Part shown: positions 55,640-61,125 of the stretch, one piece after another | Position numbering within the stretch: position 1 is the first letter of the stretch | Layout of the letters: each line of letters opens with the position of its first letter | Source: an uncultured Clostridia bacterium | Lineage (GTDB): Bacteria > Bacillota > Clostridia > TANB77 > CAG-508 | Length of the DNA: 64,000 nucleotides | Assembly (NCBI GenBank): GCA_934148985.1 | Contig: CAKPDO010000003.1 | Coordinates: 2,928-66,927, forward strand | Direction: 5' to 3' | Position numbers and translations under genes: made by a program | Notes under the pieces: generated by a model | What the model was told of the DNA's origin: nothing | The model's database searches: none | Seen by the model: the letters and a program-made list of their open reading frames with translations, nothing else

Positions 55640-55660
55640 AAATATGCTTTTGGATGGATA

Positions 55661-55691
55661 AAAAGCATATCGAAACCGATATGCTTTTTAT
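55661..55691 (+). terminator. rho-independent terminator after gyrB
   Basis: The 12-bp stem AAAAGCATATCG / CGATATGCTTTT has loop AAAC, followed by TTAT. Confidence 0.7.
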
Positions 55692-56214
55692 CCTCAAGCA
55701 AAGCTAATAACAATTTTTACTAAAACCTATAAACCTAACTTTTTAACCTAATATATATTACTATATAAATAAGCTATAAACCAAATTTATAAATCAGTCG
55801 TTCGACTAAGAATACACTTTTAATAACCTAATTCATCCAGTTTGGAGGACTAGTAGAGACCATTAACAAATATAAAAATAATCTTATCTCGAATATATTA
55901 CCTATAGTGTAACCATATTAAAATATAGCTTGCGTACAAATAATATATTCTTATCGCCGACATATAATAATCTAAAGATAAAACTATTATATATCTTTGC
56001 CCGAAAATTAATAAACTAAATATATTTAATCTAATAATTCTCTTGAAACAACTGTTATTAACCTTACTGACTATATTATGTGCAAGATGAAAAAATATAT
56101 ACATAAAAATAAAAAAATTTTTTAAATTTTTTTTAGTTTAGTTTTGAGAGCTTGGAGAAAGATTTTTTTTAAAGAAATTAAATACTTGTGTTGAATTTTG
56201 TCGAACGATTTTTC

Positions 56215-56242
56215 TTGACATTTGAAAAAAATGTAATATAAT
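56215..56242 (+). promoter_or_regulatory. sigma-A-type promoter of the insert operon
   Basis: TTGACA (56215-20), a 16-nt spacer, then TATAAT (56237-42). Confidence 0.55.
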
Positions 56243-56261
56243 GTTTTTCGAAGGAGGGAAA

Positions 56262-56816
56262 ATGAAACAAAAAAATATTACGACGCAAGAATGGATTACA
56301 ATAGAAAAAATTAATGAAAACGGAACAGTAAAATTGAAAAATGGAAAAATAATAAAAATTTTAAAAATAACTCCGATTAATTTTAATTTAAAGTCTAATC
56401 TAGAAAAAGAAGCAATTTTGAATTCTTACAAAATATTTTTAAAAACATGTAATTTTGACATACAAATTTTAATTCAAAGCAGCAAAGAAAATTTAACAAA
56501 AAATATTCAAATGATAAAAAATAATTTAGTAAAAGAAAATAAAAAATATTTAAATGAAATTGCAGAAAATTATTTTGAATTTATAGAAAAATTTAATTCG
56601 ATAAAAAATTCGTCGAGTAAAAATTTTTATATAATAATTTCAGAAGAGGAAAAAAATCAAAATGAAAATAATATTTATCAAAATTTAAATGAAAAGTATT
56701 TTAAAATAAAAGAATGTTTATTTAGATGTGGAAACATTGTTCAAGAAATTAATTCAAAAAAAGAAATAAAAGAACTATTTAATGTTTTTTTTAATTCAAG
56801 AATATATTTAAAGTAA
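56262..56816 (+). CDS. VirB4 N-terminal-domain-like protein, first part of an interrupted VirB4-like frame
   Basis: Homologous to the middle of the 407-aa protein at 16391-17614 (ITPINFNLKSNLEKEAILNSYKIFLKTCNFDIQILIQSS). Start placed at the ATG after GAAGGAGGG; the track's ATG at 56241 lies inside the -10 box. It ends at a TAA that is in frame with the next ORF. Confidence 0.6.
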   Translation: MKQKNITTQEWITIEKINENGTVKLKNGKIIKILKITPINFNLKSNLEKEAILNSYKIFLKTCNFDIQILIQSSKENLTKNIQMIKNNLVKENKKYLNEIAENYFEFIEKFNSIKNSSSKNFYIIISEEEKNQNENNIYQNLNEKYFKIKECLFRCGNIVQEINSKKEIKELFNVFFNSRIYLK

Positions 56817-56825
56817 ATAAAGGAG

Positions 56826-58646
56826 ATGGAAAATATAAAAAATATTTTTAAAAAAGAAAAAAATGAAATAAAAGAAAGTAATTTTTATGATGGAACAACA
56901 AATGTAAAAGATGATATAGCTCCAGCATATATAAATCTTTCAAATCCAAAATATATAGAAATAGATAATTTTTTTTATGGAGGACTAATTGTAACAAATT
57001 ACTATAGAGAACAAAATGATATATTGCTAAAAACTCTATTGGATACAAATATAAACATGAATATTTCTATATTTTATGAAAAACAAGACCAATACAAAAC
57101 AATAAAAGATTTAACGTATCATATAGGAAATGTGGGAACTGATATAACTGAAAAAAATAAAAATAGGGAAGACATAGATATTGCAATTTACACTTATAAT
57201 GATGCGAAATATATAAGAAAAGAGATGCAAGTAAATGGAGAAGAATTATATTTTTTATATATTTATGTTACTGTATTTGCAGATAATGTAAAAGAATTAA
57301 ATTTTTATTTAAATAGTATTGAAGGATTAATGCAAAGCCGAGGAATGCAAACCAAAAGAGCAAATTTCAGAGAAGAACAGGTTTTTAAAAGCTGCTTGCC
57401 AATTGCTGAAAATGATATTGATATAAAAAATTCGGCTAAAAGAAATGTATTAACAAATGGACTTATATCAACATATCCATTCATAACATCAAGTATTTTC
57501 GATGAAGAAGGAATTTTTATAGGAAAAAATATTTATAATAATTCTTTAATTTTCGTGGATAGATATAATACAGAAAAATATAGAAATGCAAATATGTGTA
57601 TTTTTGGAACATCTGGTGCAGGAAAATCTTTTTATACAAAATTATTAATTTTGAGATACAGGTTATTAGGAATAGAACAATACGTAATCGACCCAGAAAG
57701 GGAGTATATAAAATTAGCTAAAGAATTAGATGGCACAGAAATAAAAATTGGTCCATCATCAAACACATATGTAAATGTTTTTGATATAAGAGAGGAATCT
57801 TTGGAAGAAGACGAAAAAGGCTATTTAGCAGTAAAAATAGCAAAATTAATTGGATTTTTTAACCTTATTTTTGGAGAAATGAATGAGGAAGAAAAAGGTA
57901 TTATAGAAGAAAAAATAATAAGATTGTACAATTTAAAAAATATTAATTTTGATGATGAAAGTTTATTTATTGTAAATAAAAATAATATTATTTCAAAAAA
58001 ATTTAAATCAAGTTTAGACATGCCTATTTTAGAGGAATTTTATGAGATTTTAAATGAAGACGAAAAAACAAAAAAATTTAGCATAAAGTTAATTCCATTT
58101 ATAAAGGGCTCTTTGAAATTTTTTAACAATTATACAAATATAGAATTAAATAATAAATTAATTGTTGCAGATGTGTATGAACTTGGTGAAGAAAATTTAA
58201 AATATGGAATGTATTTATTTACAGAGTTATTTTGGGACAAGATAAAAATAAATAGAAAAAACAAAAAAGCAATTTATTTAGATGAAATATGGAGATTAAT
58301 TGGAGTTACATCAAATAAAGAAGTGGCATCTTTTATTTATAAAATATTTAAAACAATAAGAAAATATGGAGGAAGTGGTGTTGCAATTACACAAGATGTT
58401 TCTGATTTATTTAGTTTAGAAAATGGAACATATGGAAGAAGTATTTTAAATAATTCGAGCATAAAATCTTTTTTCTTGTTAGAAGAAGACAATATAAAAA
58501 TATTATCTGAAAATGTTAATTTATCTGAAAAGGAAAAAATTGAAATTAAGTCTTTAAAAAGAGGCGAAAGCCTTATGTTTATAGGAGATAACCATATTTT
58601 AACAAAGGTAGAATGTTCTGAGATGGAAAAGAAAATTATAGAGTGA
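56826..58646 (+). CDS. VirB4-family ATPase, second copy, C-terminal part
   Basis: Walker A FGTSGAGKS, Walker B AIYLDEIWRL, plus GVAITQDVSDLF. Clearly paralogous to 14506-16443. Same reading frame as 56262-56816, separated by TAA ATA AAG GAG. Confidence 0.8.
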   Translation: MENIKNIFKKEKNEIKESNFYDGTTNVKDDIAPAYINLSNPKYIEIDNFFYGGLIVTNYYREQNDILLKTLLDTNINMNISIFYEKQDQYKTIKDLTYHIGNVGTDITEKNKNREDIDIAIYTYNDAKYIRKEMQVNGEELYFLYIYVTVFADNVKELNFYLNSIEGLMQSRGMQTKRANFREEQVFKSCLPIAENDIDIKNSAKRNVLTNGLISTYPFITSSIFDEEGIFIGKNIYNNSLIFVDRYNTEKYRNANMCIFGTSGAGKSFYTKLLILRYRLLGIEQYVIDPEREYIKLAKELDGTEIKIGPSSNTYVNVFDIREESLEEDEKGYLAVKIAKLIGFFNLIFGEMNEEEKGIIEEKIIRLYNLKNINFDDESLFIVNKNNIISKKFKSSLDMPILEEFYEILNEDEKTKKFSIKLIPFIKGSLKFFNNYTNIELNNKLIVADVYELGEENLKYGMYLFTELFWDKIKINRKNKKAIYLDEIWRLIGVTSNKEVASFIYKIFKTIRKYGGSGVAITQDVSDLFSLENGTYGRSILNNSSIKSFFLLEEDNIKILSENVNLSEKEKIEIKSLKRGESLMFIGDNHILTKVECSEMEKKIIE

Positions 58647-60330: not shown

Positions 60331-60393
60331 GTTTACTTTTTAACAAAAATTTGATAAAATTATAATATAAATTTATTTTGGGAGGTAATTAAT

Positions 60394-60636
60394 ATGTCTA
60401 TGGAAAAACAAAAATTATATAAAGAAATCGAGACTTTGCCTGAAGAACTTACAAATCAAGTTATAAATTTTATTGAATATTTGAAATTATCATATATAGA
60501 GTCGAAAGCACCTGAAAGTGTAGAAATAAAAAGTAAAAGTGATTTAAAAGAAAAATTACAAAAAGGTTTAGATGATATAAAATCAAACAAAACATATTCT
60601 TTAGATGAAGTTTTTCAAGAATTAGATAATTTATAA
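60394..60636 (+). CDS. type II antitoxin (ParD/RelB- or DUF2281-like)
   Basis: 80 aa with GGAGG 8 nt upstream. Lies directly upstream of a ParE/RelE-like gene. Contains LYKEIETLPEELTNQVINFIEYLK. Confidence 0.6.
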   Translation: MSMEKQKLYKEIETLPEELTNQVINFIEYLKLSYIESKAPESVEIKSKSDLKEKLQKGLDDIKSNKTYSLDEVFQELDNL

Positions 60637-60653
60637 AAATAGGAGCAAATGTT

Positions 60654-60986
60654 ATGAAAAAATATACAGTCGAAGTTTCAAAAACAGCAGAGCAAGATTT
60701 ATGTAATATTATTTCATATCTTAGATATACATTAGCAGGCGACATTGTAGCTGATAAATATAAAACATTATTTAAACAAGCATTAAAAGATTTAGAAAAC
60801 GAAGCAGGAAGTATGTCTATTTTAAATGAAGAATTAACAGGACACAAAAACATTAGAAAAATCAATGTGAAAAATTATATGATATTTTATATTGTGGACG
60901 AAGAAAAATCAAAAGTATTTGTAGTAAGAATAGGGCATGCATTTATGAACATGAAGAATTATTTAAAAGATAGCAAAAATTTATAA
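60654..60986 (+). CDS. type II toxin, RelE/ParE family
   Basis: 110 aa. YTVEVSKTAEQDL..II.YL ... IRKINVKNYMIFYIVDEEKSKVFVVRIGH fits the ParE/RelE pattern. Confidence 0.8.
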   Translation: MKKYTVEVSKTAEQDLCNIISYLRYTLAGDIVADKYKTLFKQALKDLENEAGSMSILNEELTGHKNIRKINVKNYMIFYIVDEEKSKVFVVRIGHAFMNMKNYLKDSKNL

Positions 60987-61060
60987 TAAGGTTAGCTAAT
61001 TCAATAGTAATTTTTACAAATAAGTAATGTCTTAAAATTTGTAAAAATAGTAATTTATCC

Positions 61061-61089
61061 TTGCAAAATCTTAGTCTTTTTAGTATAAT
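61061..61089 (+). promoter_or_regulatory. near-consensus promoter for gyrA
   Basis: TTGCAA (61061-66), a 17-nt spacer, then TATAAT (61084-89), 37 nt before the ATG. Confidence 0.6.
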
Positions 61090-61125
61090 ACAAAATATAA
61101 AAACGATTGAAAAGAGGTAGAAACA

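What the first reader, a model, noticed from the sequence alone, without database searches (positions are those of the whole stretch)
55640..61125. 5.5-kb, extremely AT-rich insertion between gyrB and gyrA carrying an orphan VirB4 module and a TA pair
gyrB and gyrA are normally adjacent in Firmicutes origin regions. Here gyrB ends with its own terminator (55661-55691) and gyrA has its own near-consensus promoter (61061-61089). The DNA between them contains the following.
- A 600-bp non-coding stretch.
- A promoter (56215-56242).
- A VirB4-like frame paralogous to the first locus, with both the N-domain partner and the ATPase duplicated.
- A REC-like/P-loop protein.
- A 233-aa unknown protein.
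- A ParE/RelE toxin-antitoxin pair.

The encoded proteins are dominated by N, K, I and E, so by eye the DNA is more AT-rich than its flanks. I found no integrase or flanking repeat. A second VirB4 without pilin or VirB6 genes, locked between two essential genes and next to an addiction module, could be a decayed element. It could also be a retained accessory ATPase for the main locus, as with the duplicated rvhB4 genes of Rickettsiales.
Basis: partly seen in the sequence, partly recalled or inferred. Interest (0 to 1): 0.7.

Follow-up and report, generated by a model that had tools for sequence, protein, structure and literature searches.

The report
Ancient VirB4 module plus unknown RNA
The DNA between the two gyrase genes is not a recent insertion: it is an old, conserved part of this gut bacterial lineage's chromosome, and it encodes a second secretion-system motor with helper proteins plus a highly structured 415-base RNA that matches no known family. 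Only the small toxin-antitoxin cassette is recent and strain-specific.

Summary
The described features are present. A 5.49-kb, 21% GC spacer between gyrB and gyrA holds a split VirB4 ATPase (184 + 606 aa), a REC/P-loop protein, a 233-aa protein and a ParE pair.

It is not an insertion:
- In 51 of 51 related loci with both junctions, the spacer (3.8-8.5 kb) holds the same core: N-domain protein, VirB4, 233-aa protein.
- A 42%-identical homologue still lies near gyrB.
- VirB4b has intact Walker motifs in 51/51 orthologues and dN/dS 0.04-0.08, like gyrase. Its GC3 equals that of the flanks.

VirB4b is not a duplicate of the main-locus VirB4 (27% identity; at least 150 cluster representatives are closer). 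Both lie on the same contig in two relatives confirmed by record name, on either side of oriC.

The 304-aa protein is a shrunken, decaying MinD/ParA-type (TadZ-like) partner; a homologue follows VirB4 in all outgroups. The TA pair is a 709-bp strain-variable cassette.

The "600-bp non-coding stretch" encodes a ~415-nt structured RNA on the minus strand (75 covarying pairs, z = -11.9, no Rfam match), seen in about 150 loci, beside gyrB wherever that flank was checked.

Best reading: a vertically inherited second T4SS motor module, next to an undescribed RNA gene.

The parts
53711..55639 (+). gyrB (left boundary)
   Evidence: 642-aa ORF. It is 77-96% identical in related loci.
55661..55691 (.). 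Hairpin followed by T-runs on both strands, shared by gyrB (+) and the RNA gene (-); read here as a bidirectional terminator
   Evidence: Sequence. It is the last hairpin of the RNA fold and gives a terminator-like match. In relatives the hairpin is kept but its sequence varies.
55655..56068 (-). Gene for a ~415-nt highly structured non-coding RNA. A closing helix P1 (56066-56050 with 55715-55699) encloses five arms made of 12 helices.
   Evidence: - Conservation: 67-87% DNA identity in 63 other loci, with no conserved ORF.
- No 3-nt periodicity.
- 124 predicted pairs, 75 with compensatory changes.
- 97.3% of cells paired, against 87% in shuffles and about 41% in slid controls; 0 of 500 shuffles reach the observed values.
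- MFE -128.6 kcal/mol against -75 for shuffles, z = -11.85.
- No Rfam, tRNA or tmRNA match.
- The ends are inferred from the promoter and the hairpin; they were not measured.
56075..56103 (-). Promoter-like site for the RNA: -35 TGTATA (56103-56098), 17-nt spacer, -10 CATAAT (56080-56075)
   Evidence: The conserved blocks TATTAT and TATACA/TATTCA (+ strand) lie at the right-hand end of alignment A3, just upstream of helix P1. This is an inference; no expression data are available.
56215..56242 (+). Consensus sigma-70-type promoter of the VirB4b operon
   Evidence: TTGACA-16-TATAAT, 12/12. A perfect version lies upstream of the N-domain gene in 14 of 84 loci.
56262..56816 (+). N-terminal-domain half of a split VirB4 (TrsD/TraC-like, 184 aa, soluble). 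The mechanical ORF starts at 56241.
   Evidence: - It matches residues 1-161 of the CD1110-type VirB4 model and the TrsD family.
- PF26593 is recorded on its orthologues.
- 24% identical to the 407-aa partner in the main locus.
- No transmembrane segment.
- Present in 51 of 51 spacers.
- dN/dS 0.12-0.20.
56826..58646 (+). VirB4b: the ATPase half of the split VirB4 (606 aa)
   Evidence: - Family matches in Pfam and NCBIfam.
- Walker A GxSGAGKS and Walker B YhDEhW intact in 51 of 51 orthologues.
- dN/dS 0.04-0.08.
- 66-92% identical across 80 species representatives.
58692..59606 (+). Degenerate REC-like + MinD/ParA-type protein (TadZ/CpaE-like architecture), 304 aa, 13% GC
   Evidence: - Long homologues (356-450 aa) hit CbiA, AAA_31 and ParA.
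- The family profile hits MinD, FlhG, ParA and Soj structures.
- The window copy lacks about 110 residues, including the A' region and Walker B.
- dN/dS 0.25-0.73.
- Split by a frameshift in L088.
- A family member is present in 30 of 51 spacers.
- A homologue follows VirB4 in every outgroup locus examined.
59629..60330 (+). 233-aa all-helical soluble protein of unknown family; a core member of the module
   Evidence: - Present in 51 of 51 spacers, and also in the relocated modules of L019 and L023.
- 2239 homologues, none with a Pfam domain.
- AlphaFold2 mean pLDDT 73.7, 10 helices.
- No match by sequence or fold in PDB, BFVD or PHROGs.
- dN/dS 0.09-0.16.
60334..61042 (+). Strain-variable toxin-antitoxin cassette (antitoxin 60394-60636, ParE-family toxin 60654-60986)
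   Evidence: - PF05016 at 9e-13.
- No match to either TA gene inside the spacer of any locus.
- The exact 709-bp block is missing in L087 (97% nt identity). It is flanked by an imperfect ~15-bp direct repeat, AAAAAT[T/A]GT[G/A]A(G)TTTA.
- In L088 (98.6% identity) the toxin gene carries a 171-bp deletion, 60792-60962.
61061..61089 (+). gyrA promoter-like site
   Evidence: TTGCAA-17-TATAAT, 10/12. It is identical in L087, which lacks the cassette.
61126..63570 (+). gyrA (right boundary)
   Evidence: 814-aa ORF. It is 77-95% identical in related loci.
109..20843 (-). Main T4SS-like locus on the other side of oriC; the likely membrane machinery for VirB4b
   Evidence: - Four VirB2-type pilins by Pfam (TrbC/T4SS_pilin; a fifth, weaker hit falls below the cutoff), plus one pilin-like protein without a Pfam hit.
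- A VirB3-like protein of 119 aa with 2 TM segments.
- A TrsD-like protein (407 aa) and VirB4a (14506-16443).
- Four paralogous polytopic proteins that look VirB6-like.
- M15 and NlpC/P60 cell-wall hydrolases.
- No relaxase or coupling protein among the ORFs scanned.
- The same locus lies on the same contigs as the gyrB-gyrA module in relatives.

Best explanation
The gyrB-gyrA spacer is an ancient, vertically inherited part of the chromosome of a clade of small-genome, low-GC uncultured gut Clostridia. It holds three independent things.

**1. The VirB4b operon.** It is driven by a consensus promoter and encodes:
- a split VirB4-family motor (a 184-aa N-domain protein plus a 606-aa ATPase);
- a MinD/ParA-type protein with a receiver-like N-domain (TadZ/CpaE-like);
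- a 233-aa helical protein.

All four proteins are soluble. The motor is catalytically intact and as constrained as gyrase.

Inferred mechanism: VirB4b docks as a second, specialised energiser on the membrane channel of the relaxase-less, pilin-rich T4SS-like locus on the other side of oriC. That channel consists of VirB3-like, VirB6-like and pilin proteins. Ancestrally, the MinD-type protein set where or when the motor assembles. In this species that partner is decaying. The 233-aa protein would act as an adaptor or substrate-side partner.

**2. A stand-alone gene for a ~415-nt structured RNA.** It is convergent with gyrB and shares a bidirectional hairpin terminator with it. In evolution it stays with gyrB, not with the module.

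**3. A ParE-type toxin-antitoxin cassette.** This 709-bp block is present in this strain only.

**Shown:** conservation, synteny, selection, motif integrity, RNA structure, cassette variability, and presence of both loci on one contig in relatives.
**Inferred:** docking on the main-locus channel, the roles of the MinD-like and 233-aa proteins, and transcription of the RNA.
For: **Synteny**
- recF-gyrB-Ndom-VirB4b-(p304)-p233-gyrA is the order in essentially every locus with enough flank, among loci from 80 species representatives.
- In 51 of 51 loci with both junctions the spacer is 3.8-8.5 kb and contains the core; gyrB and gyrA are never adjacent.
- In loci sampled through the RNA rather than through VirB4b, 51 of about 55 with enough flank have the module.
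- A 42%-identical VirB4b homologue still lies 2.4 kb downstream of gyrB.

**Function retained**
- dN/dS is 0.04-0.08 for VirB4b, against 0.04-0.06 for gyrB and gyrA; p191 and p233 are similar to recF.
- Walker A and B are intact in 51 of 51 orthologues.

**Native composition**
- GC3 equals that of the flanks.
- No bracketing repeats or integrase.
- The best plasmid relative is 34.6% identical.

**Split VirB4**
- The two proteins together tile the CD1110 VirB4 model: positions 1-161 and 170-731.

**No membrane part in cis**
- None of the four proteins has a predicted TM segment. The main locus has pilins, VirB3-like and VirB6-like proteins.

**Both loci on one contig**
- VirB4a homologues lie on the same contigs as VirB4b, confirmed by record name for ZHON22-1 scaffold_384 and CANQGU010000001.1.

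**MinD-type partner is ancestral**
- A homologue follows VirB4 directly in all outgroup loci examined: L094, L095 (L096 is a near-duplicate cut at that gene), L097 and L098.
- The family hits MinD, FlhG and ParA.

**RNA**.
**TA cassette**.
**Parallel system**: relaxase-less T4SS near dnaA in Patescibacteria (PMC12102498).
Against: - No direct evidence links VirB4b to the main-locus channel.
- The main locus already has its own TrsD-like protein and VirB4a, and VirB4a is even more conserved (96-97% where VirB4b is 88-92%).
- Presence of both loci on one contig was shown only for relatives whose VirB4b is at least 82% identical. It was not tested for the more distant species.
- The nearest outgroup homologue (52%) sits in its own 14-gene operon with a PrgI-like protein, a PF00437 ATPase and pilin-like proteins. 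VirB4b may therefore descend from a separate machine.
- In two species (L019, L023) the module lies away from gyrB, next to a coupling-protein-like gene.
- There are no expression data for the operon or the RNA.
- The 233-aa protein has no detectable relatives of known function.
Confidence: 0.5

Rival explanations
1. The module is the cytoplasmic remnant or core of a second, separate machine. Its membrane parts are encoded elsewhere in the genome, for example with the coupling-protein-like gene and its two conserved neighbours seen near gyrA in relatives, or with a Tad/VirB11-type ATPase set as in the outgroup operon. On this reading VirB4b does not serve the main pilin locus.
For: - Outgroup L094 (VirB4 52% identical) has PrgI-like, TraC-like, VirB4, REC/MinD, a PF00437 ATPase and pilin-like genes in one tightly packed operon.
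- In L019 and L023 the module abuts a 424-aa TraG/TrwB-like protein.
- That protein and two conserved neighbours (108 and 294 aa) lie inverted 3-6 kb downstream of gyrA in about 25 loci.
- VirB4a and VirB4b belong to different VirB4 lineages.
Against: - No such membrane genes lie in the spacer of any of the 51 loci.
- The closest relatives of the window (L001, L002, L088) show no coupling-protein gene within 3-6 kb of gyrA.
- The rest of the genome could not be searched.
Confidence: 0.25
2. VirB4b, together with the MinD/ParA-type protein and the 233-aa protein, has been taken over for a non-secretion job tied to the replication-origin region. Examples would be DNA handling or positioning by an FtsK/HerA-superfamily ATPase and a ParA-like partner. 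That role would explain its fixed place between the gyrase genes.
For: - All four proteins are soluble.
- Linkage to gyrB persists down to 42% identity.
- A ParA/MinD-type partner is ancestral.
- VirB4a shows weak similarity to HerA and the DNA-import ATPases CedB/CedD.
Against: - The motor is a typical T4SS VirB4 by profile (1e-91 to the conjugation-type model), with the T4SS-specific N-domain partner.
- The MinD-type partner is dispensable: a family member is missing from 21 of 51 spacers and the gene is decaying here.
- The module works away from gyrB in L019 and L023.
- Position near oriC has a simpler explanation, gene dosage and stability, as proposed for Patescibacteria.
Confidence: 0.1
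3. One reading: a horizontally acquired element was inserted between gyrB and gyrA, is now decaying, and is held in place by the addiction module.
For: - The spacer has the lowest GC in the window.
- A TA pair is present.
- The 304-aa gene is degenerate.
- The spacer accumulates variable cargo in some species: an HTH gene, an M14 peptidase and extra ORFs.
Against: - The core is conserved in every related spacer.
- VirB4b, p191 and p233 are under strong purifying selection and the catalytic motifs are intact.
- GC3 is native.
- No integrase or bracketing repeats.
- No close plasmid copy.
- The TA cassette is absent from near-identical strains, so it cannot be what maintains the locus.
Confidence: 0.03
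4. The conserved non-coding block is not a stand-alone RNA. It would instead be a DNA-level element (protein-binding sites, replication or segregation signals), or a long 3' UTR or antisense feature of gyrB.
For: - It lies near oriC, next to gyrB.
- No expression data exist.
- It is AT-rich (about 24% GC).
Against: - Compensatory base-pair changes occur in 75 of 124 pairs, well above both controls.
- Folding z-score of -11.85 on the minus strand.
- A conserved promoter-like site lies just upstream of the closing helix, and a hairpin with a T-run lies at the other end.
- The element does not overlap the gyrB coding sequence.
Confidence: 0.05

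Closest known systems
Rickettsiales vir homolog (rvh) T4SS with duplicated, scattered components (RvhB4-I/II, several RvhB6, multiple VirB2); from established literature, recalled from memory, not re-read here
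   Same: - Chromosomal, vertically inherited T4SS in a small genome.
- A second VirB4 encoded away from the main gene set.
- Proliferated VirB6-like genes (four here) and VirB2-like genes (four by Pfam here, plus two pilin-like).
- No relaxase among the ORFs scanned.
   Different: - VirB4b keeps canonical Walker A and B in all 51 orthologues, whereas the second Rickettsia copy is described as divergent in its NTP-binding motif (from memory).
- VirB4b is not a lineage-internal duplicate of VirB4a.
- Both VirB4s here are split into an N-domain protein and an ATPase.
- The system is of the monoderm (CD1110/FATA-like) type, not the VirB/D4 P-type.
Relaxase-less MPF-FATA-type T4SS of Patescibacteria, encoded near dnaA (PMC12102498)
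   Same: - The same component list: VirB4, TrsD, PrgI/VirB3, VirB6 and arrays of divergent VirB2-like pilins.
- No relaxase.
- Position next to the replication-origin genes.
- Small genomes (searches compared).
   Different: - The host here is a Clostridia lineage.
- No second VirB4 module between gyrB and gyrA, and no MinD-type partner, turned up in that paper: term searches for 'gyrase' and 'MinD' found nothing, and the shown hits for 'ParA' were the word-start 'para-' (parasitic, parameters).
- Phylogenetic relatedness to the Patescibacteria clade was not tested.
Split VirB4 of staphylococcal and Bacillus conjugative plasmids (TrsD/TraD + TrsE/TraE) and CD1110-family VirB4 of clostridial conjugative elements
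   Same: The N-domain protein hits the TrsD family and positions 1-161 of the CD1110 model. The ATPase hits positions 170-731. Plasmid relatives annotated traE or DUF87 are 28% identical.
   Different: - Scores are below the curated equivalog cut-offs (308 against 325; 21 against 200).
- There is no conjugation context (no relaxase, coupling protein or oriT) in the spacer.
- The location is chromosomal and fixed.
TadZ/CpaE of Tad pili and other MinD/ParA-type positioning ATPases (MinD, FlhG, VirC1)
   Same: Long members of the 304-aa family have a receiver-like N-domain followed by a MinD/ParA ATPase. This is the TadZ/CpaE architecture. They sit next to a secretion ATPase.
   Different: - The partner here is a VirB4, not a TadA/CpaF ATPase.
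- The window copy has lost the A' and Walker B region.
- No Tad genes are in the window.
- The receiver domain was detected only weakly (E = 2.4e-4 in one outgroup).
ParDE/RelBE-type type II toxin-antitoxin cassettes
   Same: The toxin passes the Pfam ParE_toxin threshold (49.1 against 23 bits). A small upstream antitoxin gene is present, there are 17 bases between the two genes, and a promoter-like site lies upstream.
   Different: The antitoxin is only weakly similar to the DUF2281, VapB and RelB families. The cassette is a strain-level indel.
Large structured bacterial ncRNAs (OLE, ROOL, GOLLD, raiA, RNase P RNA, tmRNA)
   Same: - Size class of about 400 nt.
- A multi-helix fold closed by pairing of the 5' and 3' ends.
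- Strong covariation.
- A stand-alone gene with its own promoter and terminator.
   Different: - No match to any of 4227 Rfam families at E up to 10, apart from terminator hairpins.
- Not a tmRNA or tRNA.
- About 24% GC.
- So far seen only in this clade, convergent with gyrB.

Membership tests
VirB4-family T4SS ATPase (monoderm CD1110 / FATA-like type) | C-terminal P-loop ATPase domain with Walker A and Walker B | tested here: met
   PF19044, PF12846 and PF01935 all score above their cut-offs. GxSGAGKS and YhDEhW are present in 51 of 51 orthologues.
VirB4-family T4SS ATPase (monoderm CD1110 / FATA-like type) | VirB4 N-terminal domain | tested here: met
   It is present as a separate 184-aa protein that matches model positions 1-161. 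PF26593 is recorded on the orthologues.
VirB4-family T4SS ATPase (monoderm CD1110 / FATA-like type) | Score above NCBIfam's equivalog cut-off (325 bits) | tested here: not met
   The ATPase half alone scores 308.4 bits and the N-domain half 29.8 bits. The gene is split, so neither half passes alone. It is a VirB4-family member, but not a curated equivalog.
Functional T4SS gene cluster (conjugative or secretory) | Membrane components (VirB3, VirB6, VirB8, pilin) close to virB4 | tested here: not met
   None of the spacer proteins has a TM segment. The nearest such genes are about 36 kb away in the main locus.
Functional T4SS gene cluster (conjugative or secretory) | Relaxase and coupling protein (needed for conjugation) | tested here: not met
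   None was found among the large ORFs of the window scanned with Pfam and NCBIfam. A coupling-protein-like gene exists near the module in some relatives only.
Recently integrated mobile element / genomic island | Integrase or transposase, flanking repeats, patchy distribution, foreign codon composition | tested here: not met
   - No integrase.
- Only low-complexity repeats.
- Present in 51 of 51 spacers.
- GC3 equals that of the flanks.
rvh-type duplicated VirB4 | The second copy arose by duplication of the resident virB4 | tested here: not met
   VirB4a scores 124 bits against VirB4b, while at least 150 representatives of 50%-identity clusters score 229 bits or more. The best plasmid relatives of the two copies differ: C. 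botulinum at 40.7% for VirB4a, Vescimonas at 34.6% for VirB4b. No formal tree was built.
TadZ/CpaE-like (receiver-like domain + MinD/ParA ATPase) | MinD/ParA-type ATPase domain with Walker A, A' and B | tested here: not met
   This is met by the long homologues. The window's 304-aa copy keeps only Walker A and lacks about 110 core residues.
TadZ/CpaE-like (receiver-like domain + MinD/ParA ATPase) | N-terminal receiver-like domain | tested here: inconclusive
   A conserved N-terminal domain of about 120 aa is present. Response_reg was detected only in outgroup L094, at E = 2.4e-4 and below the cut-off. No structure was predicted.
TadZ/CpaE-like (receiver-like domain + MinD/ParA ATPase) | Encoded with Tad pilus genes (TadA, TadB/C, Flp pilin) | tested here: not met
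   None is present in the window. In L094 a PF00437 ATPase is present, but its assignment to Tad or VirB11 is open.
Type II toxin-antitoxin, ParE/RelE superfamily | Toxin domain above threshold, with an adjacent small antitoxin gene upstream | tested here: met
   PF05016 scores 49.1 bits against a cut-off of 23. The antitoxin ORF ends 17 bases before the toxin start. The antitoxin family hits are all below their cut-offs.
Any described RNA family (Rfam 15) | Covariance-model match at or near the gathering score | tested here: not met
   Nothing at E up to 1 in 55500-61300. At E up to 10 only terminator-hairpin matches appear. The whole window at gathering scores gives two tRNAs only. ARAGORN is negative.
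Structured non-coding RNA gene (generic) | A conserved secondary structure supported by compensatory changes beyond the controls, and no coding signal | tested here: met
   - 75 of 124 pairs show changes on both sides, against 36 in shuffles and about 30 in slid controls.
- Covariation score 0.353, against 0.160 and about 0.07.
- z = -11.85.
- No period-3 signal, against a strong one in the coding control.

The most novel reading that the evidence does not exclude
The ~415-nt RNA is the founding member of an undescribed class of large structured RNA that is stably linked to gyrB in a clade of small-genome gut Clostridia.

The neighbouring VirB4b, MinD-like and 233-aa genes form a previously unrecognised second motor module of a non-conjugative, origin-flanking T4SS. 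That T4SS would be the Clostridia counterpart of the T4SS reported as essential for epibiotic growth in a Patescibacteria strain (PMC12102498). This would point to a host- or partner-dependent lifestyle for these uncultured gut bacteria.
Probability: 0.4. Interest if true: 0.8.

Novelty: new variant of a known kind. Interest (0 to 1): 0.65.

Why it matters
**For T4SS biology.**
- The locus shows a whole lineage of common, uncultured human and animal gut Clostridia keeping a relaxase-less, pilin-rich T4SS on one side of oriC.
- On the other side it keeps a second, independently derived VirB4 motor with a MinD-type partner. That motor is as constrained as gyrase.
- This is the pattern seen in obligate symbionts (Rickettsiales, Patescibacteria). 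It offers a testable hint about the lifestyle of these organisms.

**For RNA biology.** Large structured RNAs with this much covariation and no family assignment are rare. This one comes with about 150 natural variants, a defined promoter and terminator, and a fixed genomic address, so it can be studied directly.

**For annotation practice.** Low GC plus a TA pair between essential genes looked like an island but is not one.

Tried and rejected
**The 233-aa protein**
- Pfam, NCBIfam and PHROGs, a profile search of PDB sequences, and Foldseek of an AlphaFold2 model (pLDDT 73.7) against PDB and BFVD all gave nothing better than E = 0.2.
- No paralogue of p233 or p304 exists in the window.

**Identity of the RNA**
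- RNase P RNA, tmRNA, SRP RNA, 6S, OLE, ROOL and GOLLD were considered. All were rejected, because there is no Rfam or ARAGORN match.
- A hidden small protein gene was rejected: no conserved ORF of 50 aa or more and no period-3 signal.
- A full covariance model was not built, because the alignment exceeds the 400-column limit. nhmmer was used instead.

**Mobile-element marks**
- Flanking repeats of the island: only AT-rich low-complexity matches.
- Plasmid origin: the best hit is 34.6% identical.

**Literature**
- Searches for VirB4 with gyrB/gyrA, and for 'TANB77' with type IV secretion, found nothing relevant.
- The term search of Guglielmini 2014 found no mention of a MinD/ParA partner for VirB4.

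**Left unexplained**
- L100 and L107: the RNA is followed by 1.3-1.8 kb of 9-18% GC DNA with no ORF of 70 aa or more and no Rfam match. In L118 the RNA lies with neither gyrB nor the module nearby.

**Not established**
- The GTDB placement of the clade. I suspect order TANB77, family CAG-508, from memory of names such as 'Clostridium sp. CAG:571'. This was not tested.

Full report
**Setting.** The window spans a replication origin.
- The cumulative GC skew turns at about 49-50 kb.
- The genes run rnpA-side/yidC/jag/mnmE/mnmG/rsmG/parA/parB on the minus strand and dnaA, dnaN, recF, gyrB ... gyrA on the plus strand.
- The organism is an uncultured, roughly 28% GC member of the Clostridia. The closest public records are gut MAGs titled 'uncultured Clostridia bacterium', 'Clostridium sp. 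CAG:571', 'CAG:575' and 'Clostridium sp. 28_12'.
- One related chromosome is 1.55 Mb, and one related metagenome contig is 1.68 Mb.

**Checking the observation.**
- The spacer 55640-61125 has 21.2% GC, the lowest of 586 windows of that length; the window mean is 28.5%.
- The N-domain protein and the ATPase are paralogous to the 407-aa/645-aa pair of the pilin-rich locus at 109-20843, at 24% and 27% identity.
- NCBIfam shows that the two spacer proteins tile one VirB4 model of the CD1110 type: positions 1-161 and 170-731. The small protein also hits the TrsD family. This is a split VirB4 of the kind known from TrsD/TrsE plasmids.
- There is no integrase and no bracketing repeat.

**It is not an insertion.**
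- The VirB4b protein has thousands of homologues. The top 120 are 82-100% identical, and many come from long chromosomal contigs.
- A scan of one genome per GTDB species kept the 80 best loci, with VirB4b identity of 66-89%.
- tblastn of the window's genes against these loci shows the order recF-gyrB-Ndom-VirB4b-(p304)-p233-gyrA wherever the flanks suffice. gyrB identity falls to 77% and RecF to 52%.
- In all 51 loci that contain both the end of gyrB and the start of gyrA, the spacer is 3.8-8.5 kb. It contains the N-domain protein, VirB4b and p233. The p304 family is present in 30 of them.
- This sample was chosen through VirB4b. A second sample chosen through the RNA gives the module in 51 of about 55 loci with enough flank.
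- A homologue only 42% identical, from a much more distant lineage, still lies 2.4 kb downstream of gyrB.
- Exceptions exist. In L019 and L023 the module (with p304 and p233) sits between leuS and a coupling-protein-like gene. In L105, gyrB and the RNA are kept but the module and gyrA are not within 6 kb.

**Selection and composition.**
- Against strains and species of increasing distance, dN/dS values are as follows:

| Gene | dN/dS |
|---|---|
| VirB4b | 0.04-0.08 |
| gyrB, gyrA | 0.04-0.06 |
| N-domain protein (p191) | 0.12-0.20 |
| p233 | 0.09-0.16 |
| recF | 0.10-0.19 |
| p304 | 0.25-0.73 |

- Walker A and B of VirB4b are intact in 51 of 51 orthologues.
- GC3 of the spacer genes (0.07-0.16) is that of the neighbours (0.13-0.15). 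The low overall GC comes from N/K/I/E-rich proteins, that is, from GC1 and GC2.
- The island-like look is therefore a by-product of mutational bias acting on less constrained residues.

**Relation of the two VirB4 genes.**
- They are 27% identical (124 bits). At least 150 representatives of 50%-identity clusters score 229 bits or more with VirB4b.
- Their best plasmid relatives differ: Oscillospiraceae plasmids at 33-35% for VirB4b, and Clostridium botulinum and C. beijerinckii plasmids at 40-41% for VirB4a.
- They are therefore not a recent duplicate pair. No formal tree was made.
- The two loci travel together. VirB4a homologues of 91-97% identity lie on the very contigs that carry the gyrB-gyrA module, confirmed by record name for two contigs.
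- In those relatives the main locus directly follows parA-parB-DUF4446. The T4SS genes thus flank oriC on both replichores.

**The main locus** (outside the finding, but needed to interpret it) has:
- four VirB2-type pilin genes by Pfam, plus two more pilin-like genes (one with only a sub-threshold hit, one with none);
- a 2-TM VirB3-like protein;
- a TrsD-like protein with an N-terminal TM segment, and VirB4a;
- four paralogous polytopic VirB6-like proteins;
- bitopic and secreted proteins, and two cell-wall hydrolases.

No relaxase or coupling protein was found among the ORFs scanned. This is the component list reported for the relaxase-less, dnaA-proximal T4SS of Patescibacteria (PMC12102498).

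**The 304-aa protein.**
- In other species its homologues are 356-450 aa and carry a conserved N-terminal domain of about 120 aa. After that come a coiled stretch and a full MinD/ParA ATPase, with Pfam CbiA, AAA_31 and ParA hits.
- A family profile hits MinD, FlhG, ParA and Soj structures.
- The window copy keeps Walker A but lacks about 110 residues, including the A' and Walker B regions. It has 13% GC and is frameshifted in a 98.6%-identical strain.
- In each outgroup locus examined (VirB4 42-52% identical), the gene right after VirB4 is a member of this family.
- The triad of N-domain protein, VirB4 and REC/MinD protein is therefore ancestral. The MinD-type member is being lost in this and several other lineages.
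- In one outgroup the triad is part of a 14-gene operon with a PrgI-like protein, a PF00437 ATPase and small pilin-like proteins.

**The 233-aa protein** is present in every spacer and in the relocated modules. It is soluble and all-helical (pLDDT 73.7), and matched nothing in any library tried.

**The toxin-antitoxin pair.**
- It is absent from the spacer of every locus.
- Against a 97%-identical contig, exactly 60334-61042 (709 bp) is missing. The junction shows an imperfect ~15-bp direct repeat.
- In a 98.6%-identical contig, 171 bp of the toxin gene are deleted.
- It is a strain-level cassette already decaying in the population, and has nothing to do with the maintenance of the locus.

**The 'non-coding stretch'.**
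- blastn of 55640-56240 against the related loci unexpectedly gave 67-87% identity over 380-490 nt in 63 loci. These include species whose RecF is only about 55-65% identical.
- There is no conserved ORF and no period-3 signal; the coding control ranks first.
- Conserved blocks at the right-hand end read, on the minus strand, as -35 TGTATA/TTGTAT, a 17-nt spacer and -10 CATAAT. The left end is the hairpin shared with gyrB.
- RNAalifold on 34 minus-strand sequences predicts 124 pairs in 12 helices: a 17-bp closing helix and five arms. Of these pairs, 75 carry compensatory changes.
- Counting on that alignment gives 97.3% of cells paired, against 87.2% for shuffles and about 41% for slid partners. 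The covariation score is 0.353 against 0.160 and about 0.07, and 0 of 500 shuffles reach the observed values.
- The window sequence alone folds to -128.6 kcal/mol, against -75.0 +/- 4.5 for shuffles, z = -11.85.
- Rfam 15 gives no match apart from terminator hairpins. ARAGORN finds nothing.
- nhmmer finds one copy, on the minus strand; in the loci whose coordinates were checked it lies between gyrB and the module. It is present in 71 of the first 93 loci.
- A pattern scan of metagenome contigs gave 120 or more matching stretches. All 80 loci returned carry the full RNA, and 73 of those have gyrB alongside.
- It stays with gyrB when the module is gone (L105) and is absent from relocated modules (L019, L023). 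It is therefore a separate gene, not part of the VirB4b operon.
- Its function is unknown. I take it to be a stand-alone, constitutively transcribed structural RNA, possibly the scaffold of a ribonucleoprotein. It is not a riboswitch or leader, since nothing lies downstream of it on its strand.

**How it most likely works.**
- The operon makes a soluble, active VirB4 hexamer-type motor in two pieces.
- With no membrane partner in cis, and with a complete channel and pilus gene set kept on the same contigs in relatives, the simplest model is a second energiser docking on that channel. It might, for example, separate pilus biogenesis from substrate transfer.
- Ancestrally the MinD-type ATPase would have positioned or timed it, as TadZ, FlhG and VirC1 do for other machines. 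That comparison rests on established knowledge of those families; the role here is an inference.
- I put this model at about 0.5.
- The main rival, at 0.25, is a separate machine with its membrane parts elsewhere. It is suggested by the outgroup operon and by the coupling-protein trio near gyrA in some relatives.

**Verdict.**
- The 'retained accessory ATPase' interpretation survives in modified form.
- The finding is a new variant of known kinds (scattered T4SS with a second VirB4; origin-proximal non-conjugative monoderm T4SS).
- It also carries an apparently undescribed large structured RNA.

Noticed in passing
window 109-20843 (minus strand): A complete, relaxase-less T4SS-like locus. It has four VirB2-type pilin genes by Pfam (plus two more pilin-like genes), a VirB3-like gene, a TrsD-like gene plus VirB4a, four paralogous VirB6-like polytopic proteins, and M15 and NlpC/P60 hydrolases. 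In relatives it directly follows parA-parB-DUF4446 at the origin. It resembles the Patescibacteria T4SS near dnaA (PMC12102498).
   Followed up: partly
window 30481-36363: Two tRNA genes (30481-30567 and 30638-30726, minus strand) lie next to a tyrosine integrase (30835-31977), a 365-aa unknown protein and an S24/HTH LexA-like repressor (33705-34457). This looks like a prophage or integrative-element remnant inserted between the origin genes and the T4SS locus. Relatives L219 and L220 lack this block.
   Followed up: no
L023:12176-14683, L019:12641-14137, and inverted copies 3-6 kb downstream of gyrA in about 25 loci (e.g. L061:16202-17713): A conserved trio: a 424-aa TraG/TrwB-like (coupling-protein-like) ATPase followed by 108-aa and 294-aa proteins of unknown family. 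It abuts the VirB4b module where the module has moved away from gyrB.
   Followed up: partly
L094:262-12946: An outgroup contig (40% GC) with a 14-gene operon. It combines PrgI-like, TraC-like, VirB4, REC/MinD, a weak CpaB-like protein, a second MinD-like protein, a PF00437 (VirB11/TadA-type) ATPase and small proteins with hydrophobic N-termini. It may be a hybrid of T4SS and Tad-like parts.
   Followed up: partly
L065:6352-7275 and L066 (same position): An M14 zinc carboxypeptidase gene occupies the place of the RNA between gyrB and the N-domain gene. The RNA is not detected in these loci.
   Followed up: no
L071:6428-6895, also L081 and L082: An extra 155-aa ORF lies between the RNA and the N-domain gene, with a weak P-loop_TraG hit (E = 0.002). 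It may be a VirB4 fragment.
   Followed up: no
L107:680-2534, L100:1-1300: In more distant lineages (gyrB 72-78% identical) the RNA is followed by 1.3-1.8 kb of 9-18% GC DNA with no ORF of 70 aa or more and no Rfam match. What lies there is unexplained.
   Followed up: partly
window 36367-38664 (minus strand): A 765-aa ORF without any Pfam hit lies next to a 312-aa ORF with only a partial aldehyde-dehydrogenase match (38666-39604). Both sit between the integrase region and DUF4446/parB.
   Followed up: no
subclade L039, L044, L047-L049, L054, L058-L063, L081, L082; between p233 and gyrA: In a subclade that lacks the MinD-like gene, a minus-strand 110-120-aa HTH (XRE-type) gene and a 65-145-aa ORF occupy the space before gyrA. 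The spacer therefore also collects lineage-specific cargo.
   Followed up: no
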